Counted from the first letter of the stretch, positions 1 through 48,247 are shown. The stretch is DNA of 64,000 bases from a virus (IMGVR_UViG_3300037722_001090); one strand, 5' to 3'. Made by a program: numbers and translations. Notes: generated by a model from the letters alone, not told the origin.

Positions 1-5
1 AACTT

Positions 6-78
6 TGGTACCGCTGCAGGGAGTTGATACCCCGATTTCCTAGTGGTGTACTAATGGTATTGCTTATACGACAGCGAT
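6..78 (-). tRNA. atypical tRNA-like gene (CCA end, non-canonical T loop, anticodon loop TACACCA)
   Basis: Acceptor ATCGCTG/CAGCGGT + A-CCA, D stem GTAT/ATAC; T loop TATCAAC lacks TTC; anticodon stem imperfect. Confidence 0.5.
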
Positions 79-84
79 AAATTT

Positions 85-162
85 TGGTGCCAGGTATCGG
101 AATTTAACCGTTTTTCGAAGACATAGGTAATGATCCTAATCCCCAGTGCTGCATAACCAGAC
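85..162 (-). tRNA. atypical tRNA-like gene (loop ATCATTA, CAT-like)
   Basis: Acceptor GTCTGGT/ACCTGGC + A-CCA, TAGG/CCTA stem around ATCATTA, short T arm CGG-TTAAATT-CCG. Confidence 0.45.
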
Positions 163-178
163 CCAACATGATTTCTTT

Positions 179-264
179 TGGTACCCGACCCCGGACTCGA
201 ACCGGGACGCCTTGCGGCATGGGGCCTAAACCCAACGGCTATACCATAGTTCGCCTAGCCGGGC
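179..264 (-). tRNA. tRNA-Leu(TAG)
   Basis: Full cloverleaf, long variable arm, loop TT-TAG-GC, GTTCGAGTC T arm, CCA encoded. Confidence 0.92.
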
Positions 265-271
265 ACATTGT

Positions 272-787
272 TTAACCATTATATCCTTTAAACCACTCAT
301 CAAGCTCAGGATCTTTATGTCTTTTAACTATAAACTCATAAAGCATAGGCTGATAAGGTTTATAACTTTTCTTGAAATAGCTCATTCCAGCTTCTTCAGG
401 TGTTCTATCTGCTTTTTTCTGATTACAATCATGACAAGCAGATGCTACATTGTCCCAGGTAGTCTTACCTCCCTTAGAGGAAGGAACTACGTGTTCAATT
501 TCAAGTTGTTTTATGGTCAATGATGCGCCACAATAAACACAGCGATAGCCATCTCTTTCAACCATATTTTCTTTGCTGAATCTTAGTCGCTTACCATATA
601 GCCCTTTAGCTAAATCAAACAGCTTTATCTTCTTTGGAACGAAGCTAGTCTCACGTATATTACTCAAGTCACCTTCGTAATCAACAAGAAAGGCTTTGCC
701 GTTTTCAATCATATGCTTAGCGCGTCTGGTTGAAACTTTATTGATGCATGCAAAGTCAGCGTTGAGTACTGAAACTGACCCTTTCAT
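272..787 (-). CDS. HNH endonuclease (McrA-like)
   Basis: RDGYRCVYCG...EHVVPSSKGGKTTWDNVASACHDCNQKK HNH motif. Confidence 0.9.
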   Translation of the reverse strand: MKGSVSVLNADFACINKVSTRRAKHMIENGKAFLVDYEGDLSNIRETSFVPKKIKLFDLAKGLYGKRLRFSKENMVERDGYRCVYCGASLTIKQLEIEHVVPSSKGGKTTWDNVASACHDCNQKKADRTPEEAGMSYFKKSYKPYQPMLYEFIVKRHKDPELDEWFKGYNG

Positions 788-821
788 AATACACACTAGA
801 CCTTTCTTTTTATTTTATTGT

Positions 822-899
822 TGGTGTGACCGAGGAGATTTGAACTCCCGTTCATTGATTCACAGTCAATGCGATTAGCCTAGCTATCTTACAGTCACC
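822..899 (-). tRNA. tRNA-His(GTG)
   Basis: Cloverleaf, loop CT-GTG-AA, extra 5' G, CCA encoded. Confidence 0.9.
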
Positions 900-903
900 A
901 CAT

Positions 904-986
904 TGCAGGTACATGGGGAATCGAACCCAAAAGTGAAGAGTTTTGGAGGCTCTTGCTAACCCAGCTAGCTTTACACTCACGCACCT
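904..986 (-). tRNA. tRNA-Trp(CCA), enlarged D region, no encoded CCA
   Basis: Loop CT-CCA-AA, T arm GGG-TTCGATT-CCC, acceptor AGGTGCG/TGTACCT, ends GCA. Confidence 0.75.
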
Positions 987-989
987 AAA

Positions 990-1400
990 ATCGAGCTAGT
1001 TTTGTACATCGGAAACTAGCAACCTTCTGCTTACTTATCGTGTAAGTGTCCCAGACAATAAACATACAAATAAAGGGCAGGGTTTTTACCTGCATCAATA
1101 GACAATCCTTTCTTAAGGGACTGACCCTCACTAAAGAAGGTTACATATTTATATGCTTATTTTCATATAATGAGTTCTCTCCACTCAATAAGTCAAGCCT
1201 TGAAGCTACATGCAAGTCGCTATGCTTCTTACATATACCTTACCGTCAATACGGAGTATGCCGGCTTTCACCACTTTAATCAATAATCCACTCTTGGCGT
1301 TCCTTCCAAGCGATATCTGTCAATTCAGATCTAAATGGTGCGCATTCATTTTTATGGTACTCTTAGAGGGCTCGTAAGCCAAAACCATGCTATTATTGTT
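990..1400 (-). ncRNA. candidate structured ncRNA
   Basis: About 400 nt with no credible ORF inside the tRNA cluster; serial hairpins (gctagttt/aaactagc, gcagg/cctgc, ccgt/acgg, cttgg/ccaag). Confidence 0.35.
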
Positions 1401-1423
1401 CAGCGTTTAGGAAATATTATTTT

Positions 1424-1469
1424 TGGTTGGGATAACTGGATTTGAACCAGTGACCCCCGAGTTATCAGC
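1424..1469 (-). pseudogene. 3' half of split tRNA-Ile(GAT)
   Basis: GCTGATAA loop, T arm ACTGG-TTCAAAT-CCAGT, TATCCCA-A-CCA; the matching 5' half lies at 2077-2096. Confidence 0.8.
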
Positions 1470-1472
1470 TTT

Positions 1473-1546
1473 TGGTACGCTCACTAAGAATTGAACTTAG
1501 ATGGTCCGGTTATCAGCCGAATCCTCTACCGTTGAGGTATGAGCGT
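1473..1546 (-). tRNA. tRNA-Ile(GAT)
   Basis: Cloverleaf, loop CT-GAT-AA, acceptor ACGCTCA/TGAGCGT, CCA. Confidence 0.88.
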
Positions 1547-1599
1547 ATAGTTTCGAATTTAGTTATTAACACTTATCACATATTGATAAGGAGTTAATA

Positions 1600-2085
1600 A
1601 TGAATTCATGCTTAAATTGTAGTAAAGAAACACTTAATCCAGTATTTTGTTCACGCTCATGTTCTGCTTCCTATGCTAATAAAATAAAGCCAAAACGTAA
1701 GAAAGAGGGTAAATGTGCAATCTGTAATGAAATAATCTCTGCTTCAAGGGCTTATTGTTCAGATATTTGTCGTGGTAAAGCTAGATCTATTGCCCGTAAA
1801 AATTCTAAAGCAAAAACGGGATATGAAAATATAAAAACCCACCGGCAAAAAGTCAAATTAAGAGCCGTACAATATAAAGGAGATAAATGTCAAATATGTA
1901 ATTATGATAAAACACCAGTTAATCTATCATTTCATCATTTAAATCCAGGTAAAAAAGATTTTAACCTTAGTGGTAATTATCACTTAACCTGGGAGACAAT
2001 ACAGGCTGAACTTGATAAATGTATTTTATTATGTATGAATTGTCATGGAGAAGTTCATGTAGGAATTATAAAAATTCCAGACTGA
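1600..2085 (+). CDS. HNH homing endonuclease with N-terminal Cys-rich zinc fingers
   Basis: CxxC...CSxxC repeats, then CQICNYDK...HHLNP...KCILLCMNCHGEVH; antisense to the tRNA cluster. Confidence 0.88.
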   Translation: MNSCLNCSKETLNPVFCSRSCSASYANKIKPKRKKEGKCAICNEIISASRAYCSDICRGKARSIARKNSKAKTGYENIKTHRQKVKLRAVQYKGDKCQICNYDKTPVNLSFHHLNPGKKDFNLSGNYHLTWETIQAELDKCILLCMNCHGEVHVGIIKIPD

Positions 2086-2096
2086 GCTATACCCCA
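2077..2096 (-). pseudogene. 5' half of split tRNA-Ile
   Basis: TGGGGTA-TA-GCTC-AGTCTGG; TGGGGTA pairs with TATCCCA of the 3' half at 1424-1469. Confidence 0.7.
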
Positions 2097-2102
2097 ATAA
2101 AC

Positions 2103-2170
2103 TGTGGAAGAACTGACGAGTCATCGTCAACAGGATATCACTTGCAACCCTACAGGAGGGAAATTCTTCC
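2103..2170 (-). tRNA. degenerate tRNA-like gene
   Basis: Perfect acceptor GGAAGAA/TTCTTCC, T-like arm TGACG/CGTCA, no canonical D/T loop consensus. Confidence 0.4.
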
Positions 2171-2218
2171 ATAACTTTTTTTTAACTGGAGCGGGTAATC
2201 GGGCTACCTGCTTTTTAT

Positions 2219-2293
2219 TAGAGCGGATGGTCGGGATCGAACCGACGACAAACAGTTTGGAAAACTGCAATTCTACCACTGAATTACACCCGC
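2219..2293 (-). tRNA. tRNA-Gly(TCC)
   Basis: Cloverleaf, loop TT-TCC-AA; ends CTA instead of CCA. Confidence 0.92.
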
Positions 2294-2308
2294 ATTGAAC
2301 TTTTTAAC

Positions 2309-2393
2309 TAGTGGGACGGATAGGACTCGAACCTATGAAACCCGAAGGTGGAAGATTTACAGTCTTCTGCAATTGCCACTATGCGACTGTCCC
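2309..2393 (-). tRNA. tRNA-Tyr(GTA)
   Basis: Cloverleaf with long variable arm, loop CT-GTA-AA; ends CTA. Confidence 0.92.
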
Positions 2394-2424
2394 ATGATGC
2401 CACCCATAGGTGGACTTTTATTTA

Positions 2425-2760
2425 TTGATTGGCCCCCTTCTGATCTAAAGAGCATTTAATCAAATCCGCTTGAACCAATCTTCTAGATATAATTGAGGAT
2501 TTTCTTTATAGACGTGAACTCATCCTCTGCAAACATGTCTTTCCGATAAGAGTGTAGGATTATTTTATCTTACGGGAGCTTACTCCGCTACTTCAATACC
2601 GCTAGGCTTCACCTGATTGCTTATGTCAGTCACGCCATCACCGCACATAAGGCGTGCGTCCCAGTTTCCTCTTATCTAGCAACTCAAGCCATAGACGCCT
2701 GATCCGTTCAGGTCAATTAAGAACACGATATCACAATCGGCCCTCTATGGGTTTCGTATT
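2425..2760 (-). ncRNA. candidate structured ncRNA
   Basis: About 330 nt ORF-free; helices GATAAGAG/CTCTTATC, CACGCC/GGCGTG, CCTGA/TCAGG, GGAG/CTCC. Confidence 0.4.
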
Positions 2761-2814
2761 TGGTGCCAGACCAGCTGCAACCATGAATCACAGCTCTCTC
2801 GAGATCCGTCTGGC
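2761..2814 (-). ncRNA. miniature tRNA-like RNA with CCA end
   Basis: Perfect 7-bp GCCAGAC/GTCTGGC + A-CCA, internal AGCTG/CAGCT stem, only 54 nt. Confidence 0.55.
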
Positions 2815-2830
2815 TTTTTGTTAAACTAAT

Positions 2831-2905
2831 TGTGGACCCTATCGGGCTCGAACCGATAACCTCCTAAGTGCAAGTCAGGTGCTCCCCCAGTTGAGCTAAG
2901 GGCCC
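2831..2905 (-). tRNA. tRNA-Ala(TGC)
   Basis: Cloverleaf, loop CT-TGC-AC, G3:T70 pair; CCA not encoded. Confidence 0.92.
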
Positions 2906-2916
2906 ATTGTAAAATT

Positions 2917-2990
2917 TGGTCGAAAGTGATGGACTTTAACCACCGGCCTCCTCCACCCAAGGAGGTGCCCCTTCACCGGGCCGACTTTCG
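2917..2990 (-). tRNA. atypical tRNA-Pro-like gene with 6-nt anticodon loop
   Basis: C1:G72, A73, CCA; stem CCTCC/GGAGG closes TTGGGT; T loop TTAAAGT. Confidence 0.65.
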
Positions 2991-2997
2991 AAATTTT

Positions 2998-3076
2998 TGG
3001 ATGCGGATGCTAGATTTGAACTAGCGATCTTTTGGTTATGAGCCAAATGGGATAGGCCAGACTTCCCCAATCCGCA
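2998..3076 (-). tRNA. tRNA-Met(CAT)
   Basis: Cloverleaf, loop CT-CAT-AA, CCA. Confidence 0.88.
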
Positions 3077-3102
3077 AAACCATGTAGTTTTTTTTATGAA
3101 AC

Positions 3103-3600
3103 TTAAGAAAGCAAGTTCATTGCTTTAACAAACTTTGAAGCTCCAATGATTTCAGCAGCATCATAAAAAGCATTTACTTCTTCCTGCGTTGCAATACGCA
3201 TATTCTCTTCAGTAAAATGAGGAAGATTATTGCCTACAGCACCACCAATATCGACAGCATTCTTGCCTTGATATACAGCAATAAGCTCTCCAATAGCATA
3301 GCTATGACTGTTAGTATTGTCAAGAAGAAGAATCATAGCACCTTTGGGTGCTCCAAGGACAGAAGGCAGCAAAATATCTTTGGATTTAGTAGTGATCTTT
3401 TCACCAATAAGTTCTCCTACAATACCAATAATATCTCTTTTGCCACCAGAGCAAAAGTTACCCGATCCATTGATAAGAGCTAGAAGCTTTTTAGCCTTCT
3501 CACTAGGCTCTTTCTCTTTTTCAGTATAAGCTTTTTCAAGAATAGCAGACAATTGCTTTGTTGCTTCTAGAGACATTGCTCTAAGTTCTTTCAGATCCAT
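3103..3600 (-). CDS. hypothetical protein
   Basis: ORF; start moved to MDLKEL, which has a purine-rich RBS. Confidence 0.7.
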   Translation of the reverse strand: MDLKELRAMSLEATKQLSAILEKAYTEKEKEPSEKAKKLLALINGSGNFCSGGKRDIIGIVGELIGEKITTKSKDILLPSVLGAPKGAMILLLDNTNSHSYAIGELIAVYQGKNAVDIGGAVGNNLPHFTEENMRIATQEEVNAFYDAAEIIGASKFVKAMNLLS

Positions 3601-3637
3601 TTTAAAATTTCCTAAAAAGTTGTTTAAAGATACGGTG

Positions 3638-3988
3638 TTACATTTCAGAAATAAAACAATGACCATCATGTTCAACGGCCACACGAGTAGCAGGACCTAA
3701 AAGGTCACTATATTTACGAAGCCATAAACTGATTGTTGGTTGTGCTACACCAGTACTGAGAACGGCATTATAAAGCTCCTTGAACTTAATGGGAGCAGAA
3801 AATCTCCCACTTCTTCCACGGCCTAAGCGATAGTTAGGTCCAGCAGCAGCTTCAAGCTCTTTCGCAATAATACGGCGGGCTTTATATCCATATTGAGCAC
3901 CATGTGTAGGTACTCCTGGGATTTCTGCTTGTTGACGAAATTTCACTGCACGACAATCATTAAGCGCTTGTAAAAATTCCTTAGTCAT
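3638..3988 (-). CDS. hypothetical protein
   Basis: ORF with GAGG RBS, co-oriented with neighbours. Confidence 0.65.
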   Translation of the reverse strand: MTKEFLQALNDCRAVKFRQQAEIPGVPTHGAQYGYKARRIIAKELEAAAGPNYRLGRGRSGRFSAPIKFKELYNAVLSTGVAQPTISLWLRKYSDLLGPATRVAVEHDGHCFISEM

Positions 3989-4010
3989 ACTAAAAATTCC
4001 TCAAAAATGT

Positions 4011-4085
4011 TGGCGGCATAGACCGGGATTGAACCGGCAACTTCCTATTCGACAGACAGGCACTCTACCATTGAGTTACTACGCC
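4011..4085 (-). tRNA. tRNA-Asp(GTC)
   Basis: Cloverleaf, loop CT-GTC-GA, G73, CCA. Confidence 0.92.
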
Positions 4086-4094
4086 AGTTAATTT

Positions 4095-4177
4095 TGGCTC
4101 TGAGAGTTGGATTTGAACCAACGACCTCGCTTTTTAAAGGCGGCCACCTACGCGCTCTACCACTGAGCTATCTCAGA
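4095..4177 (-). tRNA. atypical tRNA with about 10 extra nt in the anticodon arm (loop CTTTAAA, possible TTA anticodon)
   Basis: Perfect acceptor TCTGAGA/TCTCAGA, canonical D and T arms, G-CCA; anticodon arm distorted. Confidence 0.7.
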
Positions 4178-4191
4178 ACACTATTCAGTTT

Positions 4192-4270
4192 TGGTTACCA
4201 GGACCGGAGTTGCACCGATGACCACCTACCCGTGTAGATAAGTAGCTCTTTTACTGAGTCTTACCCGGCA
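4192..4270 (-). tRNA. atypical tRNA, 8-nt anticodon loop ATCTACAC (TAC- or CTA-like)
   Basis: Acceptor TGCCGGG/CCTGGTA, T loop TGCAACT, CCA. Confidence 0.6.
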
Positions 4271-4284
4271 ACATAATTTTTTAT

Positions 4285-4360
4285 TAGCAGTCGCACCGAG
4301 GATCGAACTCGGCTCTCAATCTTGAAAGGATTGCGTCCTGGCCTACTAGACGATGCAACC
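4285..4360 (-). tRNA. tRNA-Glu(TTC)
   Basis: Cloverleaf, loop CT-TTC-AA; ends CTA. Confidence 0.92.
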
Positions 4361-4375
4361 AAAAACCTTAAGTAA

Positions 4376-4453
4376 TGGAGCCCACTATCGGATTCGAACC
4401 GATGACCTACGGGTTACAAATCCGTTGCTCTGGCCGAACTGAGCTAAGCGGGC
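4376..4453 (-). tRNA. tRNA-Thr(TGT)
   Basis: Cloverleaf, loop TT-TGT-AA, CCA. Confidence 0.93.
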
Positions 4454-4460
4454 AATTAAT

Positions 4461-4534
4461 TGGTGGGCCTTATCAGACGTTACCCTGATCCAACTGCATG
4501 TACTGTGCAGCTGAGCAACTTACACTATCGTCCC
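4461..4534 (-). tRNA. degenerate tRNA-like gene
   Basis: CCA end, GCTGC/GCAGT stem with 9-nt loop, ATCAG/CTGAT T-like stem, weak acceptor. Confidence 0.4.
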
Positions 4535-4560
4535 ATATTAAATTTTTTATTACTACTTAT

Positions 4561-4652
4561 TGGCTCCCCAGAGTGGGCTCGAACCACTATACCGCTCTCG
4601 CGGAATACACTTGATTAACAGTCAAGCCTCTTACCAATTAGAGTACCGAGGA
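4561..4652 (-). tRNA. tRNA-Asn(GTT) with long variable arm
   Basis: Loop CT-GTT-AA, G73, CCA; extra CCGC-GAGA-GCGG hairpin in the variable region. Confidence 0.88.
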
Positions 4653-5189
4653 ATGGTATTTTTTATATCTTTTTCTTACAGCAGCTTCAGAAATATCTAG
4701 TATCTCTGAAATTTGTACATTAGTCATGGTCTTTTTTAGTTCTGTTAAATCTATTTTATCCCAATTGACTTTTCCTGATAGCTTAGCTGCACAATTATGA
4801 GAACAAGTTTTATTATACATTGGTTTTGAAGCACCACAAACAGGACACTCATTAATTTTAACAGTTATCATCTTGTATTCAGCATATTTTTCATTAAAAT
4901 ATTGTTTAACTTCAGGACTAGTTCTTATTCCTGAATGTATTTCGCAATGACAATTATGACATAAAAGAATACATTTTCTTAATTCTATAATAATTTTTTC
5001 CCAAGCCTTAGGATTACCTCTTATTGCTCCAAGAGTAAATTCTTTTTTACTAGGATCAAGATGGTGCAAAGCTAACGCGTCATTACACTTATCATATCCA
5101 CAACAAGAGCATTTACCTCCCATTGATAATACAATTCTTTCTTTTGTTTTTTTACGCCACTCTTTAACACGCTCAGAACCTTCACTCAT
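4638..5189 (-). CDS. HNH homing endonuclease with C-terminal zinc finger and HTH
   Basis: CSCCGYDK...HHLDP...KCILLCHNCHCEIH, then CPVCG...CSHNC and an HTH-like C-terminus; stop codon lies inside tRNA-Asn. Confidence 0.88.
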   Translation of the reverse strand: MSEGSERVKEWRKKTKERIVLSMGGKCSCCGYDKCNDALALHHLDPSKKEFTLGAIRGNPKAWEKIIIELRKCILLCHNCHCEIHSGIRTSPEVKQYFNEKYAEYKMITVKINECPVCGASKPMYNKTCSHNCAAKLSGKVNWDKIDLTELKKTMTNVQISEILDISEAAVRKRYKKYHSSVL

Positions 5190-5279
5190 AGAACCTCCAA
5201 CATAATTATTAACTATACATGTTAATAACTACATTATGGTTCTAAGAGTTTTACATTTTTAAAACGAGCACTGGGAGCT

Positions 5280-5334
5280 TGGTACTCTCTATCACGATCA
5301 AGTCGTGCTTCGCCTACCAGTTTTATCTAGTACT
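5280..5334 (-). ncRNA. miniature tRNA-like RNA candidate
   Basis: CCA end, CACGA/TCGTG hairpin, short terminal GTACT/AGTAC pairing. Confidence 0.3.
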
Positions 5335-5356
5335 TAGACTCATTTTAATAATTTAT

Positions 5357-5429
5357 TACCCAAGAACAAACGAAAACAGTGTTGGTTTCAATTCAAAGGT
5401 GAAGTAACTGTTTTCTAACACTATGGGTA
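5357..5429 (-). ncRNA. short Y-RNA-like hairpin RNA (paralogue of 6131-6284)
   Basis: TACCCA/TGGGTA and GAAAACAG/CTGTTTTC stems; shares TAGTGnTAGA...AGTTACTTC and TCG..TGTTCT with 6131-6284. Confidence 0.6.
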
Positions 5430-5448
5430 TATTTTTAACTTTTTCTTA

Positions 5449-5525
5449 TGGTCGGAATAGCAAGAATCGAACTTGCGACCTCTCCCTCCCAAGGGGAGCG
5501 CTCTACCAGGCTGAGCCATATTCCG
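5449..5525 (-). tRNA. tRNA-Pro(TGG)
   Basis: Cloverleaf, loop CT-TGG-GA, CCA. Confidence 0.93.
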
Positions 5526-6130
5526 AAAATATAATTAGTCTATACATGTTTGTCTTTTTAGGAGACTGGTTATAACCCAGTATAGTAGGTATCTGCCTAT
5601 TGACAGAATTTTGCCACACTAATTTAATACATTATTTAATTGTCAATGAACTTAATCAACACTACGAAATAGATTAGTTGAAAGCTTAATCATATCATTC
5701 GATATATTGATTTCAAATTTTTTAAAAAGAACAACTACAAAAATAGCAAAAATTAAACATAAATACCAAAACATAGCGTATCCTTAAATTAAAAAACCGC
5801 AGGGATTATCTCCGCTGCGGCTAAAATAAGAATATGTATTATATTACTTAAGTAGTTACGCAGCTAGTATTAGTTGCCCAGAGATTGCCTAGATTCTTAT
5901 TATCATGGCTAGCAAAGGCTGGTATAAATGGGCGCTCAATAATTTGATACACGGGTACATTCATCTCAAGAGGTTTAAGTCTTGAATTGCATGAATAGCA
6001 CGCTTGTGTTTGAGCTAAAGAGCAACAACAGATCATTTTACTAATACTTCCTTTTCAAAAATAGCACGACTTGTGTGCTTATGTTTGTTAATAACTGGTT
6101 ATGTTTTTTTACGGAAAACTTTATTTAAGA

Positions 6131-6284
6131 TGCTAGAGAACATGCGATAAGAGAGATGGCCGAAGCCGTTCATACCGGTGCGTTTACCAATTTCGCCACC
6201 CCTCCATAAAAGTGGAGGACGCAGGACTCGAACCTGCAAATATCCGGTCCCAATAGAAGTAACTCTTATCTATCACTACTAGCA
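6131..6284 (-). ncRNA. YrlA-like Y RNA (circularly permuted tRNA mimic)
   Basis: Order is T arm (GCAGG-TTCGAGT-CCTGC), loop-closed acceptor stem (TCCTCCA/TGGAGGG), D arm (TGGCGAAATTGGTAAACGC), carried on ACCGG/CCGGT, GATAAGAG/CTCTTATC and TGCTAG/CTAGCA stems; 1.2 kb downstream of Ro60. Confidence 0.82.
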
Positions 6285-7455: not shown

Positions 7456-8883
7456 TTAAGCAGCATGAATAGCAAGAGACTTTTCATACTCACGAACATA
7501 GTCAATAGTTGCTTCAGAGAAGCCGTTGACATGAGTCCATTTGGAATTGTAGCCAACACCATTTTCATAGCTAGCAACATTGATAATATAGCCAAGCCCA
7601 TTAGGCTGTGCAATGCCAGTTTGGCTCTGTTCGTCAGTAAAGACGATGATACGGTCATACTTGCCATTAGTCTTGTTAATATACTCAACAGCACGATGAA
7701 GATCAGTACCGCCAAATCGCTGACTGTTCTTAATAGCCTCACGAAGAGCAAATCCACGACGAGGAGCAATCTGCTTAACGTCAGTAGAAAAGCTATAGAC
7801 ATCAACTTCTTCGCAAACTTCACGAGCAAGCATAGCAATGCCAAAGGCTGCATCCATACGAGTCATTTCGCTTTTGTCAGACATCTTAGCGCACATGGAA
7901 CCAGAGACGTCAACAAGAAGGATAGTCTTACCAGCAATCTTCTCTTGTACATCAAGACATTTCAGCATACCAGTTTCAAGAGCATCTTCATACTGAGGAG
8001 CATAGTTCGCAGCAGTAATGAAGCGATAAGGAAGAACACGTTCAGGGTTCATGCTACGAAGCGCATTCTTGATTAAGGCAGGATCAACGCCAGCTTCAGT
8101 CATTCCGCGCAAGTTACGAAGAAGTGCCAACGCACCAAGAAGATTTTTTTGCTCAGGATCAAGATTAGCATTCAGCATACGAGTGAACGTATCCTTTTTA
8201 TTCTCACCAGCGGACAGATTAGTTTCCCAGGTATCAGGAGTTGCAAGAGTGTCAGCTGCCAACTTTGCCCAGAGTGCAGCCTGAGCAGCATCCTTAGGTT
8301 TAGCGTGGCACAAGAATAGCACGTCGCGGAGCTTAATGGCACTGTTGCGATTGTATTTCGCAAGAGAATACTCATCAAACTTAGTGAACGCACGAGCAAG
8401 ACCCTTTTTCACGGAAGCTGCAATAGGAGTCTTCTTGAATACGCGCTCAGTAGTAAGCCGCATGCTGTCATAGTAGCCGTATCCTTTAGTAGCCTTTGTC
8501 TCAGTTTCCGTCCAATACATAGCAAGAAACTCAGCAAGCTCATCAGGACGCTGAATAACAGCCTCAAGAGCATCAGCGACAATATGACGATGAGTCGGAA
8601 TGCGAGCAGCCTCACGAACTAGCATGAGAGGGGCATGCCGCAGTTTAAAAGCAGTACGAGCCTCAAGCGCAAGAGCAGCAACAGTTTCCGGAGGAACAGT
8701 TGCTACCAAATTTTTGATACGCTCAGACACAGAAATACCATCTTCGTAAAAGTTATCCTCAAACAGAAGACAACCAAGAATAGTACGACGAAGCATCTCT
8801 TCGTTTTTTGCTACAACCACACTTGCGCCTGCATGATTGAGGGATCGGATAGCACGAGGTGCTGGTTTATTTGTTTTCGCCAT
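7456..8883 (-). CDS. rsr: Ro60/Rsr RNA-binding protein (TROVE + vWA)
   Basis: TROVE signature (LRHAPL, IQRPDELAEFLA, FDEYSLAKY, LRDVLFLCHAKP, ALLRNLR, VLPYRFITA) and vWA MIDAS DVSGS...FTDEQ. Confidence 0.95.
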   Translation of the reverse strand: MAKTNKPAPRAIRSLNHAGASVVVAKNEEMLRRTILGCLLFEDNFYEDGISVSERIKNLVATVPPETVAALALEARTAFKLRHAPLMLVREAARIPTHRHIVADALEAVIQRPDELAEFLAMYWTETETKATKGYGYYDSMRLTTERVFKKTPIAASVKKGLARAFTKFDEYSLAKYNRNSAIKLRDVLFLCHAKPKDAAQAALWAKLAADTLATPDTWETNLSAGENKKDTFTRMLNANLDPEQKNLLGALALLRNLRGMTEAGVDPALIKNALRSMNPERVLPYRFITAANYAPQYEDALETGMLKCLDVQEKIAGKTILLVDVSGSMCAKMSDKSEMTRMDAAFGIAMLAREVCEEVDVYSFSTDVKQIAPRRGFALREAIKNSQRFGGTDLHRAVEYINKTNGKYDRIIVFTDEQSQTGIAQPNGLGYIINVASYENGVGYNSKWTHVNGFSEATIDYVREYEKSLAIHAA

Positions 8884-9094: not shown

Positions 9095-10105
9095 CTAAAT
9101 GTTATTTAAGATTTCGCCAAATACTTCACGTTGGATAAGACGGACAAGCCAGTCTTCCCAGCGCTTACGATTTACTTCACTGGGATACTCAGAAATAGCA
9201 GTAAGCTTTTCACAAGTATCAATTAGAGATTCCATTAAGGGAAGAACTTCCGTTAAATAATCCATCTCTCCGTTTTTAATTTTTCGTAGCGTAGAGCCAC
9301 AGCTTAATGGATACTGTATAGTACCAACAGTCATTATGGAGATAAGCTGAAAAGCAGCACGAATAGCATGACTTATCGCTTTCCAATCAATACCTTCATT
9401 AGCTTCTGCCTTCTTAGCTCTAGCGCCATATTCATCATACTTCTTTTTTATGCCATCACGCATATATTCAAGAGTAACAGTTTCCTGAAACTTCTGACCA
9501 CATACTTGATACATACGATATTGGTTCTTATCTCCAGCATCAGGAGACAGTTTATGGATATGTTCACCGGCAGGCAAACAGTCCCAAGTACCATCTAGCT
9601 TAATGCTAATGTTACGATCCACAACAAAATCAAGAACCGCTTTCATTGCAATAAGACGAGAGCCTTTAACTCCATATTTAGCAGCTTGTGAGCGAGCATA
9701 TCCAATAAATGATTTTAATTCGCTTGTATAAAACTCTGATCTAGAAGCAGTCATCTCGTCCCAGATTACAGAAGTAGCAAATATTTTATCTTTAGGAATA
9801 TGCAACATATCAAGAGCAGCAGTATCGCCGTCCATAGCAAGTTTAAGGAAATAATTAAGAGAATAGAATTCAATATCTACATCATCTTTACTGTTCTTCC
9901 CATCTGTTTCTTTTGTCTTAAAATGAATAGATTTTGGATAAAGACCAAGATAAACTTCTCTTTTTGTAGGCATATAAATGCCTTTAAAGTCCCAGTCTGA
10001 ATCTTCAGTATTTGCACCATAAAGACGAGAGCCAAATACTCCAAACATTAAAACATTCAAGTTTCCTATTTCAGGAAACATTTTTAATACTTTTTGATAA
10101 TTCAT
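9095..10105 (-). CDS. RlaP/NrdC.11-like Pol-beta nucleotidyltransferase
   Basis: FGSRLYG.NTEDSDWDFKGIY motif, GYARSQAAKY, DWKAISHAIR. Confidence 0.88.
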   Translation of the reverse strand: MNYQKVLKMFPEIGNLNVLMFGVFGSRLYGANTEDSDWDFKGIYMPTKREVYLGLYPKSIHFKTKETDGKNSKDDVDIEFYSLNYFLKLAMDGDTAALDMLHIPKDKIFATSVIWDEMTASRSEFYTSELKSFIGYARSQAAKYGVKGSRLIAMKAVLDFVVDRNISIKLDGTWDCLPAGEHIHKLSPDAGDKNQYRMYQVCGQKFQETVTLEYMRDGIKKKYDEYGARAKKAEANEGIDWKAISHAIRAAFQLISIMTVGTIQYPLSCGSTLRKIKNGEMDYLTEVLPLMESLIDTCEKLTAISEYPSEVNRKRWEDWLVRLIQREVFGEILNNI

Positions 10106-18826: not shown

Positions 18827-20236
18827 CTAATCTCCGGATGAAGCACCATCTCTACCTTCAGCGCCAATAGCATATCTTTTAGTAAACCCGATTAACTCAT
18901 CAACAGTGTTGTGGTTTGGGTTCATAGTGACATGTTCAAGCAGTGCCTTCAGTATTTCTCCGATAAGTGGTCCACGTTTCTTACCAACAATTGCCATAAC
19001 ATCATGGCCATTAATAGCAAGATCCTTCACTGATAGCGGATCTCCTGCTTCAATAATAGCAAGACATCGTGCTCTAAATTTAAAGAAATCCTCCATATTA
19101 AATGGAGGTCGACTTGAAACTGAATCTGCAAACTGAAGGCAGAACAGATTTTCAAGATTGTCAACACCTACTCGGCGGATGAACTTACGTGCACCACTAT
19201 CAGGCATTGTATGATGTCGGTTCATATGTTCACGAATGATAATACAAACCCGATCCCGAAGATGGCACGGATAATTTAACCGATCCTGCCCAAGAATAGC
19301 AAATGCCATTGTCTCACTCTTCAATTGATGCATATAGTAATGACCAACACCATCATCACCAAAGCTTTGAGTGTGTACCTTACCGATATCATGTAACAGA
19401 CCACCTAAACGCTGTTCTATTACCTTATCAGTCATCTCCATTGCACGGAGAGAATGCTCAAGAAGATCCCATCTGTGATGAGGATTCTTTTGATCATACT
19501 TGTACATAGCAGCAACTTCAGGAAGGATCTCCTTACAGAGCCCTGTCTTAAGAAGCAAGCGCATGCCTTCAGCACAATGATCAGAAAGTAATATTTGATC
19601 GAGTTCCATGCGAATAGCATCACCAGAACAATGCGTAACTAGGCTTGCATGATCACAGAGCGCATCGAAGGTCACTTTATCAATGCTAAATTGCTTTGTA
19701 GTCGCCTGCCTTACTGCTCGCATCATACGTAGCTTATCTTGCTTGAATCGATCTGCTGGGTTACCAATAGCACGAATGACTTTTTTCTCACAGTCATCTA
19801 TGCCACCAACCCAGTCCAGTATTACACCTTCAATGTCCATAAATAGCCCATTGACAGTAAAATCCCTACGAATAACATCGTCATAAGGATTGAGTGAAAA
19901 CGTTACAGCTTCTGGCCTACGACCATCGCCTTCTTCGCTATCTAGCCTGAATGTTGTAACTTCACACTCCTGCGTAACAGCAAGGCGAATAGTAATAGTA
20001 CCATACTTACCACCAGTGTCATATGCGAGATTGCCAAACATATTCATGACTTCTTTTGGAGTTGCACTTGTAGCAACATCCCAGTCATGAGGCTCAAGAT
20101 TAAGCAGAAGGTCACGAATAGCACCTCCTGCCACAAAAGCAAGATGATCTTGTTTGTGAAGATGTTCAAGAATAGCACGTACATGACTTGGTATTAAAGA
20201 TGGGTTTATTTGCATCATATCTGGTTCAGGAATCAT
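18827..20236 (-). CDS. cca: CCA-adding tRNA nucleotidyltransferase with HD domain
   Basis: GGAIRD...DWDVAT, VTTFR, RRDFTVNG, DKLRMMRAVR, LLHDIGK. Confidence 0.93.
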   Translation of the reverse strand: MIPEPDMMQINPSLIPSHVRAILEHLHKQDHLAFVAGGAIRDLLLNLEPHDWDVATSATPKEVMNMFGNLAYDTGGKYGTITIRLAVTQECEVTTFRLDSEEGDGRRPEAVTFSLNPYDDVIRRDFTVNGLFMDIEGVILDWVGGIDDCEKKVIRAIGNPADRFKQDKLRMMRAVRQATTKQFSIDKVTFDALCDHASLVTHCSGDAIRMELDQILLSDHCAEGMRLLLKTGLCKEILPEVAAMYKYDQKNPHHRWDLLEHSLRAMEMTDKVIEQRLGGLLHDIGKVHTQSFGDDGVGHYYMHQLKSETMAFAILGQDRLNYPCHLRDRVCIIIREHMNRHHTMPDSGARKFIRRVGVDNLENLFCLQFADSVSSRPPFNMEDFFKFRARCLAIIEAGDPLSVKDLAINGHDVMAIVGKKRGPLIGEILKALLEHVTMNPNHNTVDELIGFTKRYAIGAEGRDGASSGD

Positions 20237-21401: not shown

Positions 21402-21531
21402 TGGGAGGGGGAGGTAGGAATCGAACCTACAATCTCAGCCTTTACATGTTCTCAACGCATGTGGGATACTACTAGGCACTCATGATTACCTATTTTCACC
21501 AGCTGGGCTTTACCAATTAAGCTACTCCCCC
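21402..21531 (-). tRNA. tRNA with about 60 nt inserted in the anticodon loop
   Basis: GGGGGAG/CTCCCCC acceptor, GCTT-AATTGGTA-AAGC D arm, GTAGG-TTCGATT-CCTAC T arm; CAGCT/GGCTG stem encloses about 60 nt. Confidence 0.75.
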
Positions 21532-46417: not shown

Positions 46418-48247
46418 ATGAGATTAGACCATCCCAGATTTAAAGATCCTCAATGCCAAGCATGTATCGCTAGAGCTAAGAAGAAATATGGTAAGTTTGC
46501 TATACCATGTAGTGGTATAACTATCGATAAGGACGTTGCTTTTGCTATTAAGAATGGTATGTCTGAAGAAGACGCTAGATATATGTACGACCCTTCTTAT
46601 TTCTTTAAAGAAAGTTATAGATCTGAAGCCAGAGAGTATCAGATACCAATATTAAGGTGTACTAGCCGAAACTTAGTAGCAAGACAATGTAGGCAGACAG
46701 GTAAGACACTAGCTTTTGTAAATAAGATCCTACATTATGTAGGTACTAATGATGATAAGACAGTTCTTATTATTACTCCGCAAGAGAAGCAGATTAAAAA
46801 AATCTGGGATGAGTATATTTTCCGTGATGGTATTGACAAAAATAAAAAATTAAAAGACTCAGTAGTTAGTAAAAGAGAGAAACCATACTATCAAGTAACT
46901 TTTGATAATGGATCTAGAATCTTGCTAATGATCGCCGGCCCAGGTGTCCGTGGACAGACTGCTGACTGGATTTATATTGATGAAGCTGCAATAGTACCAA
47001 ATGATACACTAAAAGATATTTTAATGACAATTGCATCTAGAGGTGATGATGCTACTATCCTTCTAACCTCCACACCTAAAGGTAGAGGTAATGTGTTTTA
47101 TGATGCATGTAAAGAAGATCCATCATTTAATGAGTATCACGTATCAATTGACGATGTACCTGAAATGCATGGACAGATATCTAGATTTAAGAAGCTATTA
47201 GGTGAAACAGGATATATACAAGAAGCACTTGCTGAATTTCCTGCTACCTCAGGTGGTCCATTTAACTTAAATGGTATTACCTTAGCTAAAGATGAGTACG
47301 AATATGAAGACTGCTTTAGAGAACCGGGGTTAATTTACTTTGGTGGCGTAGACTGGAACGGACCAGGTATTGGTACGTATTTCTACATAATTGCATTTGA
47401 TCCTAATCGTACAACACTTAAAATAGTAGACAAGCAAGTAGTTGCTTCTGCTAACTGGAATAGTACAGTAGCAAAGAATTGTTTAATTGAACTTAATAGG
47501 AAATGGGAACCAAAGCACTGGATGTGTGACTACGGATATTCTCAATCACTAATTGAAGAGATTAGACGATACTCAATGCAAGTACAGGCACCAAAAGGAC
47601 ACCCAGATCTAGTAATTAAGCATATTATAGAGACTGTTGCCTTCGGATCAACACTATTAGTAGAGGATCCATTTACTAAAGAAGAAGTTAAGAAAACAGC
47701 AAGGTCATTCATAGTATCACAGGTTGCAAGACTATTTGAACCAAGAGGTGCTGAAGGTGAAGAATGGGTACCATTACGCTTCTCAGCTAGTGATAGTGAG
47801 CTAATTAAATCACTAGAAGTATATAAGTTGTTGCAGATTACTACTACAGGACAAGATAAGTACGGAATAGACCCAAAAGATGGAGTAGAAGACCATGCAG
47901 TTGACGCCTTTATTCTTGCTTGTTATGGTGTAATAAAGTACTATAATGAGTTATTTAAAAGAATAATATATGCATCTGTAGGCTTTAATGCAGAGTCTAT
48001 TTTAGTGCCTCCTCCAGAACCTGAACATGATAATAAAATCATAGCAGGAGGAATCATTTTATTAACAGATAATAGTCCAGAACTGATATACTTGGATGAT
48101 AGTAAAATTAAAGATCCAACTGAAATTAGAGAAATAATTATCTCTAGAACATTTTCAAAGAGCATGAAAAAAAGGTGCTATACCCAAGGAAACTTTTCTG
48201 GTATTATGAAGGGTAGAGGCGGATTAGTTAGAAGAACTAATTTCTAA
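46418..48247 (+). CDS. terL: terminase large subunit
   Basis: CRQTGKT Walker A, PGVRGQTAD.IYIDEAA Walker B, STPKG, GVDWN nuclease, DHAVDA. Confidence 0.93.
   Translation: MRLDHPRFKDPQCQACIARAKKKYGKFAIPCSGITIDKDVAFAIKNGMSEEDARYMYDPSYFFKESYRSEAREYQIPILRCTSRNLVARQCRQTGKTLAFVNKILHYVGTNDDKTVLIITPQEKQIKKIWDEYIFRDGIDKNKKLKDSVVSKREKPYYQVTFDNGSRILLMIAGPGVRGQTADWIYIDEAAIVPNDTLKDILMTIASRGDDATILLTSTPKGRGNVFYDACKEDPSFNEYHVSIDDVPEMHGQISRFKKLLGETGYIQEALAEFPATSGGPFNLNGITLAKDEYEYEDCFREPGLIYFGGVDWNGPGIGTYFYIIAFDPNRTTLKIVDKQVVASANWNSTVAKNCLIELNRKWEPKHWMCDYGYSQSLIEEIRRYSMQVQAPKGHPDLVIKHIIETVAFGSTLLVEDPFTKEEVKKTARSFIVSQVARLFEPRGAEGEEWVPLRFSASDSELIKSLEVYKLLQITTTGQDKYGIDPKDGVEDHAVDAFILACYGVIKYYNELFKRIIYASVGFNAESILVPPPEPEHDNKIIAGGIILLTDNSPELIYLDDSKIKDPTEIREIIISRTFSKSMKKRCYTQGNFSGIMKGRGGLVRRTNF

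What the first reader, a model, noticed from the sequence alone, without database searches (positions are those of the whole stretch)
5357..6284. Phage-encoded Y RNA pair: a permuted tRNA mimic and a truncated paralogue
6131-6284 has the T arm / loop-closed acceptor stem / D arm order established for bacterial YrlA RNAs. 5357-5429 keeps the same terminal motifs (TAGTGnTAGA-n4-AGTTACTTC ... CT-n4-TCG..TGTTCT, with compensatory stem changes) but lacks the tRNA module. I do not see the usual bacterial GNCGAA Ro-binding motif, so this may be a divergent Ro60/Y RNA pair with two effector variants.
Basis: partly seen in the sequence, partly recalled or inferred. Interest (0 to 1): 0.8.

Follow-up and report, generated by a model that had tools for sequence, protein, structure and literature searches.

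The report
Phage Y RNAs beside a Ro60 gene
Two small RNA genes downstream of a phage Ro60 gene are real Y RNAs, one a circularly permuted tRNA mimic and one a short hairpin; they belong to a known RNA class (YrlA-type) and are two of seven copies in this phage.

Summary
On the minus strand, Y1 (6283-6131) and Y2 (5428-5357) share a two-helix terminal module. The module's stems covary across relatives.

- **Detection.** A covariance model built without any sequence of this phage finds exactly these two sites in the 64 kb window. E-values are 1e-7 for Y1 and 2.5e-13 for Y2.
- **Y1 structure.** Y1 carries a T arm, a loop-closed acceptor stem and a D arm. ARAGORN calls its circular permutation a complete cloverleaf.
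- **Neighbours.** Ro60 (TROVE plus vWA) lies 1.2 kb upstream on the same strand, next to an RlaP nucleotidyltransferase.
- **Distribution.** The module occurs next to Ro60 in 21 of 22 related viral contigs, in cultured phages (Tenjo, CcrColossus) and in about 80 bacterial loci, always on the Ro60 strand.
- **Link to YrlA.** In Tenjo and CcrColossus the module flanks sequences that Rfam YrlA scores at 30-56 bits. Y1 itself scores only 13 bits against a threshold of 69.
- **The "missing" motif.** The GNCGAA motif is degenerate in the window (AGUGAUAG). The first-base change is compensated by UGUUCC becoming UGUUCU. The motif is exact in a sister copy just outside the window.
- **Copy number.** The phage has seven such genes interleaved with tRNAs, not a pair.

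Phage Ro60 and Y RNAs are already published (2014, 2025). This is a new, divergent member of a known kind. Ro60 binding is inferred, not shown.

The parts
6131..6283 (-). Y1: a YrlA-type Y RNA gene (terminal Ro module plus permuted tRNA-like module)
   Evidence: R1 42.7 bits, E 7.6e-8, full model, not in the training set. R2 40.3 bits. Sequence.
6263..6283 (-). Y1 5' strand of the terminal module: outer helix GCUAG-U-AG, loop UGAUA, second helix GAUAAGAG
   Evidence: cmsearch alignment to R1. Pairs covary in A1 and A4.
6256..6262 (-). UUACUUC, with the YUAY element (UUAC) at nt 22-25 of the RNA
   Evidence: Near-invariant in 67 aligned elements. YUAY is described in PMC4201824.
6174..6248 (-). 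tRNA-like module: ACCGG / variable loop / T arm 6237-6221 / acceptor hairpin 6220-6199 / D arm 6196-6180 / CCGGU
   Evidence: ARAGORN on the circular permutation. Rfam YrlA partial alignment over model positions 29-81. T and D arms covary in A2.
6158..6167 (-). Extra GGC-UUCG-GCC hairpin between the tRNA module and the 3' strand of the second helix
   Evidence: Read from the sequence. The L001 orthologue has GGG-UUUAA-CCC at the same place.
6132..6153 (-). Y1 3' strand of the terminal module: CUCUUAUC, loop GCAUGUU, outer helix CU-CUAGC
   Evidence: cmsearch alignment.
5357..5428 (-). Y2: a short Y RNA with the same terminal module around a 21-nt loop and no tRNA module
   Evidence: R2 63 bits, E 2.5e-13, from a model built without this phage. 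Sequence.
7456..8883 (-). Ro60 orthologue (475 aa)
   Evidence: Pfam TROVE 4.7e-13 and vWA_Ro60 3.2e-11. PHROG 850 RNA-binding protein 3e-44. PDB 9KOP/9L5Y phiLo Ro60 2.5e-13.
9095..10105 (-). RlaP-family nucleotidyltransferase directly upstream of Ro60
   Evidence: Pfam RlaP 2e-17. PHROG 388 9e-85. The RlaP-Ro60 order is kept in L001 at 63% identity.
6063..6079 (-). Terminator-like hairpin plus U run about 50 nt after Y1
   Evidence: Consensus scan.
5449..5525 (-). tRNA-Pro(UGG) ending 20 nt before Y2
   Evidence: ARAGORN. Rfam tRNA 67.9 bits.

Best explanation
Y1 and Y2 are Y RNAs, the small noncoding RNAs that partner the ring-shaped RNA-binding protein Ro60. They are encoded by an uncultured tailed phage from sediment and soil, together with its own Ro60.

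Both RNAs pair their 5' and 3' ends into a conserved module:
- an outer helix;
- an asymmetric internal loop (5' U-R-G-Y-G-N-A, 3' G-N-U-U-G-U-U);
- an 8-bp second helix;
- then UUACUUC.

By analogy with frog, Deinococcus, Salmonella and Thermus-phage Y RNAs, this module is the Ro60 docking site (inferred). The part enclosed by the module is the effector end.

- In Y1 it is a complete tRNA-shaped domain in permuted order (YrlA class). It is expected to engage proteins that recognise the tRNA elbow, or to be handled by tRNA enzymes.
- In Y2 it is a 21-nt open loop (YrlB-like class). This is the kind of single-stranded region that tethers PNPase in Deinococcus.

The RNAs would gate Ro60 and tether it to different partners during infection, most likely in RNA degradation or repair. 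The neighbouring RlaP enzyme, a CCA-adding enzyme and a large tRNA set fit that role.

Shown here: the structures, their conservation and covariation, and their linkage to Ro60. Inferred: expression, Ro60 binding and the partners.
For: Structure and statistics:
- The shared motif occurs twice against 0.06 expected.
- The terminal module is 95% paired across 14 elements, and 13 of 15 pairs show changes on both sides. Slid controls give 37-50%. The result repeats on 19 other elements.
- A model built without this phage finds only Y1 and Y2 in 64 kb. With filters off there is no third hit.
- The permuted Y1 is called a cloverleaf by ARAGORN. T and D arms covary in 19 tRNA-type relatives.

Linkage to Ro60:
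- Ro60 lies on the same strand, 1.2 kb (Y1) and 2.0 kb (Y2) upstream.
- There are 63 module hits in 21 of 22 viral Ro60 loci, all on the Ro60 strand.
- At least 300 hits lie next to Ro60, nearly all upstream, in 80 bacterial loci, all on the Ro60 strand.

Link to the published family:
- In Xanthomonas phage Tenjo and Caulobacter phage CcrColossus the module brackets the stretches that Rfam YrlA scores at 55.9, 42.3 and 38.8 bits.
- CcrColossus is named as a phage reported with Y-RNA-like ncRNAs and a Ro60 homolog (PMC12135203).
- A phage Ro60 has been shown to bind two phage-encoded Y-like RNAs and host PNPase (PMC12135203).
- The published anatomy is a motif near the 5' end, YUAY at nt 22-25 and T/acceptor/D order (PMC4201824). 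Y1 matches it.
Against: - Rfam YrlA does not recognise Y1: 13.2 bits, E 3.9, against a gathering score of 69. No Y_RNA family hit was found.
- The literal GNCGAA motif thought to contact Ro60 is changed at three positions in both window copies.
- The genes lie downstream of Ro60, separated from it by two ORFs and a terminator-like site. Most relatives have them directly upstream.
- No expression or binding data exist for this phage.
- A few module copies in related phage genomes lie far from Ro60.
Confidence: 0.85

Rival explanations
1. The elements are Ro60-recognition sites that act in cis on the long tRNA-cluster transcript. They would mark or chaperone the polycistronic precursor for processing or protection. 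They would not be released as free adaptor RNAs.
For: All seven copies are interleaved with tRNA genes on one strand. Y2 starts 20 nt after tRNA-Pro. Only weak promoter-like sites were found.
Against: - In most relatives the elements form tight arrays in front of Ro60 with no tRNAs between them.
- M. smegmatis YrlA and YrlB are cut from one precursor yet act as free Ro-bound RNAs (PMC4201824).
- Closed terminal helices are typical of stable released RNAs.
Confidence: 0.07
2. Y1 is a decayed or rearranged tRNA gene, or the junction of two former tRNAs. The flanking motifs would be processing signals of the tRNA cluster unrelated to Ro60.
For: - Tandem tRNAs can mimic the T-acceptor-D order, and the YrlA model gives sub-threshold hits in 13 of 14 control genomes (caveat in PMC4201824).
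- Y1's arms share 11-13 nt with the T arms of the phage's own tRNAs.
Against: - There is no anticodon arm or second half-tRNA on either side.
- The acceptor strands pair with each other across a 7-8 nt loop.
- The same terminal module encloses non-tRNA loops in Y2 and in many relatives.
- The module tracks Ro60 across phages and bacteria that have no tRNA cluster there.
Confidence: 0.04
3. The repeats are a small mobile or homing-associated DNA element that spreads within the tRNA region. The terminal helices would be DNA inverted repeats.
For: Seven dispersed copies lie among tRNAs. HNH endonuclease genes sit in the same region.
Against: - Helix positions change by compensatory, including G-U, substitutions while the loop letters stay fixed. 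That is the signature of selection on RNA.
- All copies are on one strand.
- There are no target-site duplications or near-identical copies. The copies within one phage differ widely in their enclosed modules.
Confidence: 0.03

Closest known systems
YrlA (Y RNA-like A; Rfam RF02553; Chen et al. [quoted passage not shown]
   Same: - Encoded within 4 kb of Ro60 on the same strand.
- The 5' and 3' ends pair into a two-helix module with an internal loop.
- YUAY at nt 22-25.
- An enclosed T arm, loop-closed acceptor stem and D arm.
- Relatives that carry the same terminal module are scored by the YrlA model at E down to 6e-12.
   Different: - Y1 fails the Rfam model: 13 bits against 69.
- Its 5' motif reads AGUGAUAG rather than GNCGAA(N)G.
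- The 3' strand of the module (CG-N-UUGUUCC) is conserved in this lineage. The literature says only the 5' strand is conserved across bacteria.
- Y1 has an added UUCG hairpin.
- It lies downstream of Ro60 inside a tRNA cluster.
YrlB / Yrn2-type short bacterial Y RNAs (Salmonella, M. smegmatis, D. radiodurans)
   Same: Y2 is a second, shorter Ro-site-bearing RNA encoded beside a tRNA-like Y RNA. Every bacterium studied so far has such a pair.
   Different: There is no sequence family to test against. The published short Y RNAs are long hairpins with small pyrimidine-rich loops. Y2 has a 21-nt mixed loop and shares its whole terminal module with the tRNA-type copies.
Thermus phage phiLo Ro60 with Yrl1 and Yrl2 (PMC12135203)
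   Same: A phage-encoded Ro60 with two or more phage-encoded Y-like RNAs nearby, having a stem-bulge-stem layout around a CGAA-type motif. The phiLo protein is the nearest solved structure to this Ro60.
   Different: In phiLo the RNAs lie upstream of Ro60 and keep CGAA. Binding and PNPase recruitment were shown there, whereas here nothing is shown. The paper's text does not use the term 'tRNA-like' (0 occurrences).
Metazoan Y RNAs (Rfam RF00019)
   Same: The same modular logic: a terminal helix with a conserved bulged region that binds Ro60, plus a variable effector loop.
   Different: No Rfam match. The sequences differ, and there is no oligo-U/La tail.

Membership tests
YrlA (RF02553 / Chen 2014) | Encoded within about 4 kb of a Ro60 orthologue, on the same strand | tested here: met
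   Ro60 is at 7456-8883(-). Y1 starts 1.17 kb and Y2 2.03 kb downstream, on the same strand.
YrlA (RF02553 / Chen 2014) | tRNA-like domain in the order T arm, loop-closed acceptor stem, D arm | tested here: met
   Y1 only. ARAGORN calls the permuted sequence a cloverleaf. The Rfam YrlA alignment places the three hairpins in register. The arms covary in relatives. Y2 lacks the domain.
YrlA (RF02553 / Chen 2014) | GNCGAAN0-1G motif near the 5' end | tested here: not met
   Y1 has AGUGAUAG and Y2 has AGUGUUAG at the homologous place. The exact GGCGAAG occurs in sister copy Y6 of the same phage and in relatives such as L009. The G-to-A change pairs with the C-to-U change in UGUUCU (G-C 15, A-U 4).
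YrlA (RF02553 / Chen 2014) | Conserved YUAY at the start of the variable region (nt 22-25 in Salmonella) | tested here: met
   UUAC lies at nt 22-25 of both Y1 and Y2, within the near-invariant GUUACUUC.
YrlA (RF02553 / Chen 2014) | Score at or above the Rfam gathering threshold (69 bits) | tested here: not met
   Y1 scores 13.2 bits, E 3.9, over model positions 29-81 only. There is no hit at E<=10 in the 1.2 kb scan. Relatives with the same terminal module reach 30-56 bits, also below threshold.
YrlA (RF02553 / Chen 2014) | tRNA tertiary pairs such as the Levitt pair 15:48 | tested here: inconclusive
   By inspection, A at the position after A14 in the D loop and U at the end of the variable loop could form A15:U48. 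G18 G19, the T-loop UUCGA and G53:C61 are present. No 3D test was made.
Y RNA in general | Bound by Ro60 and stabilised by it | not testable with these tools
   Needs immunoprecipitation or a gel-shift assay. No RNA runs hold this DNA.
Metazoan Y_RNA (RF00019) | Match to the Rfam model | tested here: not met
   No hit at gathering or at E<=10.
Ro60 (TROVE) protein, for the neighbouring gene | TROVE/HEAT ring domain followed by a vWA domain | tested here: met
   Pfam TROVE and vWA_Ro60 are above their cut-offs. The match to PDB 9KOP covers residues 37-464.

The most novel reading that the evidence does not exclude
The seven Y RNAs may be a panel of different tRNA look-alikes and open-loop adaptors. 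The phage Ro60 would use them to intercept or recruit several host tRNA-directed enzymes at once, as a counter-defence layer working with the phage's own tRNA set, RlaP and CCA-adding enzyme.

Some copies encode ACCA right after the acceptor 3' strand (Y3 of this phage, and the Y1 orthologue in L001). RNase P could cut these into two-piece tRNA-like RNAs with a free CCA end.
Probability: 0.12. Interest if true: 0.75.

Novelty: new member of a known kind. Interest (0 to 1): 0.4.

Why it matters
**Where it falls short of new.** Phage Ro60 with Y RNAs has been known since 2014. It was shown biochemically for one Thermus phage in 2025, so the core idea is not new.

**What this case adds:**
- **A detection gap.** The curated Rfam YrlA model misses this lineage entirely at its threshold, in phages and in Acidobacteriota. 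Y RNAs are therefore under-annotated.
- **A usable signature.** The terminal module is conserved on both strands (UGGYGNAG ... GUUACUUC ... CGNUUGUUCC) and finds these RNAs sensitively. Its G-C to A-U covariation suggests that the first base of the 'Ro motif' is paired.
- **Copy number.** One phage can carry seven Y RNAs with five different tRNA-like heads scattered through its tRNA cluster, CcrColossus carries eight, and some soil bacteria carry five or more listed hits at one locus.

That multiplicity gives a concrete way to ask what the effector ends do.

Tried and rejected
- **Rfam.** At gathering threshold the window and 22 viral loci gave only tRNAs and one tmRNA, and 15 bacterial loci gave only tRNAs and one HEARO RNA. 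At E<=10 on 1.2 kb there was no YrlA hit.
- **Cultured phages.** Megablast of 3.8 kb against cultured phages found no match.
- **Whole genome.** None is held for this window.
- **Extending the window.** Exact-match scans with the window's first 40 bases found nothing in metagenome or viral contigs. The extension was reached instead through a protein look-up.
- **Sequencing runs.** Only DNA holders from sediment and soil were listed, with no RNA holder. No reads were laid.
- **Possible third element.** The region 5235-5350(-) contains GGCGAAG and folds somewhat better than shuffles (z -2.2). It does not match the module even with filters off, so it was rejected as a family member.
- **Origin of Y1's tRNA head.** A comparison with the phage's own tRNAs gave only generic 11-19 nt arm matches.
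- **The 259-aa ORF between Ro60 and Y1.** No Pfam, PHROG or Atlas lead was found, and it is not clearly conserved in L001.
- **Extra pairs inside the internal loop.** Y11-G and G12-U are compatible, but they change on one side only or not at all, so they show no covariation. N14-U is not supported.
- **Whole-record search.** The first-look filter of this search misses copies with large inserts, so its counts were not used.
- **Papers not held.** The supplement tables of PMC4201824 and the review PMC10870794 are not held.

Full report
**What is there**

All genes in this part of the window run on the minus strand. A 475-aa Ro60 orthologue lies at 7456-8883. Pfam finds TROVE and the Ro60-type vWA domain, PHROG 850 matches it, and the nearest solved structure is the Ro60 of Thermus phage phiLo. 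An RlaP-family nucleotidyltransferase lies directly upstream at 9095-10105.

Downstream come a 259-aa ORF with no family, a DUF6717 ORF, and then the first element, Y1, at 6283-6131. A terminator-like hairpin follows at 6079-6063. After it come a short ORF-poor stretch and tRNA-Pro (5525-5449). Twenty bases later comes the second element, Y2, at 5428-5357.

The window also holds 13 further tRNAs, two HNH endonuclease genes, a CCA-adding enzyme (18827-20236) and a T4-type large terminase (46418-48247). It is therefore a tailed phage. The same DNA is held by sediment and soil metagenome runs. No cultured phage is close at the DNA level, and the best Ro60 identity among cultured phages is 47%.

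**Checking the observation**

The expectation from shuffles is 0.06.

Y1 reads, 5' to 3':
- outer helix GCUAG-U-AG;
- loop UGAUA;
- second helix GAUAAGAG;
- UUACUUC and a short linker;
- ACCGG and a 6-nt variable loop;
- T arm GCAGG-UUCGAGU-CCUGC;
- acceptor 3' strand GUCCUCC, then A and a 7-nt loop;
- acceptor 5' strand GGAGGGG, then UG;
- a D arm with the GG-containing loop, then A and CCGGU;
- a GGC-UUCG-GCC hairpin;
- the return strands CUCUUAUC, GCAUGUU and CU-CUAGC.

ARAGORN finds no tRNA in the native order. When the sequence is rotated at the acceptor loop, it reports a 75-nt cloverleaf whose anticodon loop is interrupted by a 71-nt insert, which is the terminal module.

Y2 has the same outer helix, loop motifs, second helix and UUACUUC, but they surround a 21-nt loop. 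The second helices of Y1 and Y2 differ by compensatory changes. The description is therefore accurate.

**Is it more than chance, and is it conserved?**

Using the Ro60 protein I fetched 22 viral contigs. A simple scan showed T arms preceded by GUUACUUC and followed by CGCUUGUUCC next to Ro60 in nearly all of them.

*Covariation in the short elements.* Fourteen short elements aligned cleanly. For the two-helix structure:
- 95% of cells are paired.
- 13 of 15 pairs show changes on both sides.
- Sliding the partner by one to three columns drops pairing to 37-50%.

*Model R1.* A covariance model of this module found 63 sites in 21 of the 22 loci, all on the Ro60 strand. The one locus without a hit lacks upstream DNA. 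In the window, R1 found only Y2 and Y1, and Y1 was not in the training set (42.7 bits, E 7.6e-8). With filters off over 22 kb the next best score was 9.2 bits.

*Model R2.* This second model was built from 19 elements of other phages only. It scored Y2 at 63 bits and Y1 at 40.3 bits, again with no other hit in the window.

*The tRNA-type elements.* Nineteen of them aligned with Y1. RNAalifold recovered both terminal helices, the T arm and the D stem, and 21 of 23 pairs showed compensatory changes.

**Link to the known family**

Chen et al. (PMC4201824) defined YrlA RNAs by four features:
- they are encoded within 4 kb of Ro60 on the same strand;
- they have a GNCGAAN0-1G motif near the 5' end;
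- they have a YUAY at about nt 22-25;
- they have a domain in the order T arm, acceptor-like stem-loop, D arm.

They reported such RNAs in 22 phages.

Rfam holds this family as RF02553 (114 positions, gathering score 69). It does not reach threshold on Y1, on any of the 22 viral loci, or on 15 bacterial loci. On Y1 alone it gives 13.2 bits (E 3.9). That alignment covers only the three tRNA-like hairpins, though in the right register.

The bridge to YrlA comes from cultured phages:
- In Xanthomonas phage Tenjo and Caulobacter phage CcrColossus my module hits bracket, by about 12 nt on each side, the same stretches that RF02553 scores at 55.9, 42.3, 38.8 and about 30 bits. The E-value reaches 6e-12 in a small search.
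- CcrColossus is one of the phages cited as previously reported to have Y-RNA-like ncRNAs and a Ro60 homolog.
- The Rfam consensus has the same layout as my module: helix, asymmetric internal loop, helix, CUA, then the anticodon-like stem.

The module is not universal. In a Rhizobium phage, the YrlA-like hits are not matched by it.

**The 'missing' Ro motif**

At the 5' internal loop the family consensus is U-G-G-Y-G-(N)-N-A-G. Many members read GGCGAAG or GGUGAAG, which is the published motif or one transition away from it.

Y1 and Y2 read AGUGAUAG and AGUGUUAG. The first position (G or A) pairs with the last base of UGUUCC or UGUUCU. Across 19 independent elements the pair is G-C 15 times and A-U 4 times, and never mismatched. 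Both window copies are of the A-U kind.

The window therefore carries a degenerate but homologous version of the motif. A sister copy of the same phage carries the exact GGCGAAG. Two further pairs inside the loop (Y-G and G-U, leaving a UU bulge) are compatible but do not covary.

**Not a pair but seven**

I tested that claim.

A metagenome contig, L118, is 100% identical to window 1-4930 and continues 4.7 kb further. Both models find five more elements there, at 37-49 bits. They are interleaved with tRNA-Leu, Arg, Lys, Phe, Val and Gln.

Four of the five have T, acceptor and D modules that differ from one another. One is short and has the exact motif. One tRNA-type copy, and the Y1 orthologue in the nearest relative L001, encode ACCA directly after the acceptor 3' strand. 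This recalls the M. smegmatis YrlA, which is cut by RNase P and carries CCA.

L001 is syntenic with the window. Its RlaP is 63% identical and sits next to Ro60. It has two tRNA-type elements, then tRNA-Pro, and later a short element.

**How it most likely works**

Established knowledge on Y RNAs:
- They dock on the outer surface of the Ro60 ring through the terminal helix, and they use the enclosed part to gate the ring or tether a partner.
- The partner is PNPase in Deinococcus and Salmonella.
- The partner of the tRNA-like elbow is unknown.
- A phage Ro60 binds two phage Y-like RNAs and host PNPase in vitro.

From this I infer that all seven RNAs share one Ro60 docking module and present different heads. 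The neighbouring RlaP, the CCA-adding enzyme and the tRNA set point to RNA repair or turnover during infection. I did not test this. Expression, ends, binding and partners are all inferred.

**Rivals**

- *Cis-acting Ro sites on the tRNA precursor.* This reading fits the interleaving. It does not fit relatives whose arrays have no tRNAs between them.
- *A decayed tRNA or tRNA junction.* This reading does not explain why the same module surrounds non-tRNA loops, nor its linkage to Ro60.
- *A mobile DNA repeat.* This reading is contradicted by G-U-tolerant compensatory changes, by the single-strand orientation, and by the lack of near-identical copies.

**Verdict**

This is a new and divergent member of the known YrlA/Y RNA kind. 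It is of moderate interest for three reasons:
- the conserved two-strand module;
- the failure of the curated model on this lineage;
- the high copy numbers.

Noticed in passing
L118:4940-6871 (same genome, just before window position 1): Five further Y RNA genes, four tRNA-type and one short with the exact GGCGAAG. They are interleaved with tRNA-Leu, Arg, Lys, Phe, Val and Gln. L118 is 100% identical to window 1-4930.
   Followed up: yes
L031-L110 (mostly Acidobacteriota MAGs; also Granulicella rosea L062 and Thiofilum flexile L092): At least 300 module hits lie next to bacterial Ro60 genes (nearly all upstream), all on the Ro60 strand, with five or more listed hits at several loci. Rfam YrlA reached threshold on none of the 15 loci tested.
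   Followed up: partly
L111:2763-3955 (Caulobacter phage CcrColossus) and L113:2349-2943 (Xanthomonas phage Tenjo): There are eight and five tandem module-bearing elements, respectively, in the unannotated gap before the Ro60 gene. In CcrColossus an annotated 'tRNA-Gln' (3173-3240) lies inside one of them.
   Followed up: partly
L118:4940-5082 and L001:8768-8939: The acceptor 3' strand is followed directly by ACCA before the closing loop, with a 7-bp acceptor stem. This is the configuration that RNase P cuts in M. smegmatis YrlA.
   Followed up: no
window 21406-21531 (-): An Rfam tRNA match (51.4 bits) spans 126 nt, so this is a tRNA with an insert of about 55 nt. ARAGORN does not call it. It lies next to a metallophosphoesterase and near the CCA-adding enzyme.
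   Followed up: no
window 2917-2990 and 4095-4177 (-): ARAGORN reports two tRNAs with undetermined anticodons (odd anticodon loops). The second also matches Rfam tRNA at 51.7 bits.
   Followed up: no
window 5235-5350 (-): A structured stretch after Y2 contains GGCGAAG and folds better than shuffles (z -2.2). It does not match the Y RNA module.
   Followed up: partly
window 272-796 and 4638-5189 (-): HNH endonuclease genes are embedded in the tRNA and Y RNA cluster.
   Followed up: no
window 6056-6080 and 5988-6010 (-): The terminator-like hairpin after Y1 shares an approximate direct repeat (ACACAAG-CGUGCUAUU) with a site about 70 nt further on. Seen by eye only.
   Followed up: no
L114:7793-8048 (Brevundimonas phage Papperlapapp); L003:4696-5089; L098:2852-3089: A permuted tmRNA lies near the phage Ro60 locus in L114. 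A tmRNA is present in viral contig L003. A HEARO RNA lies about 1 kb upstream of Ro60 in a Dehalococcoidia MAG (L098).
   Followed up: no
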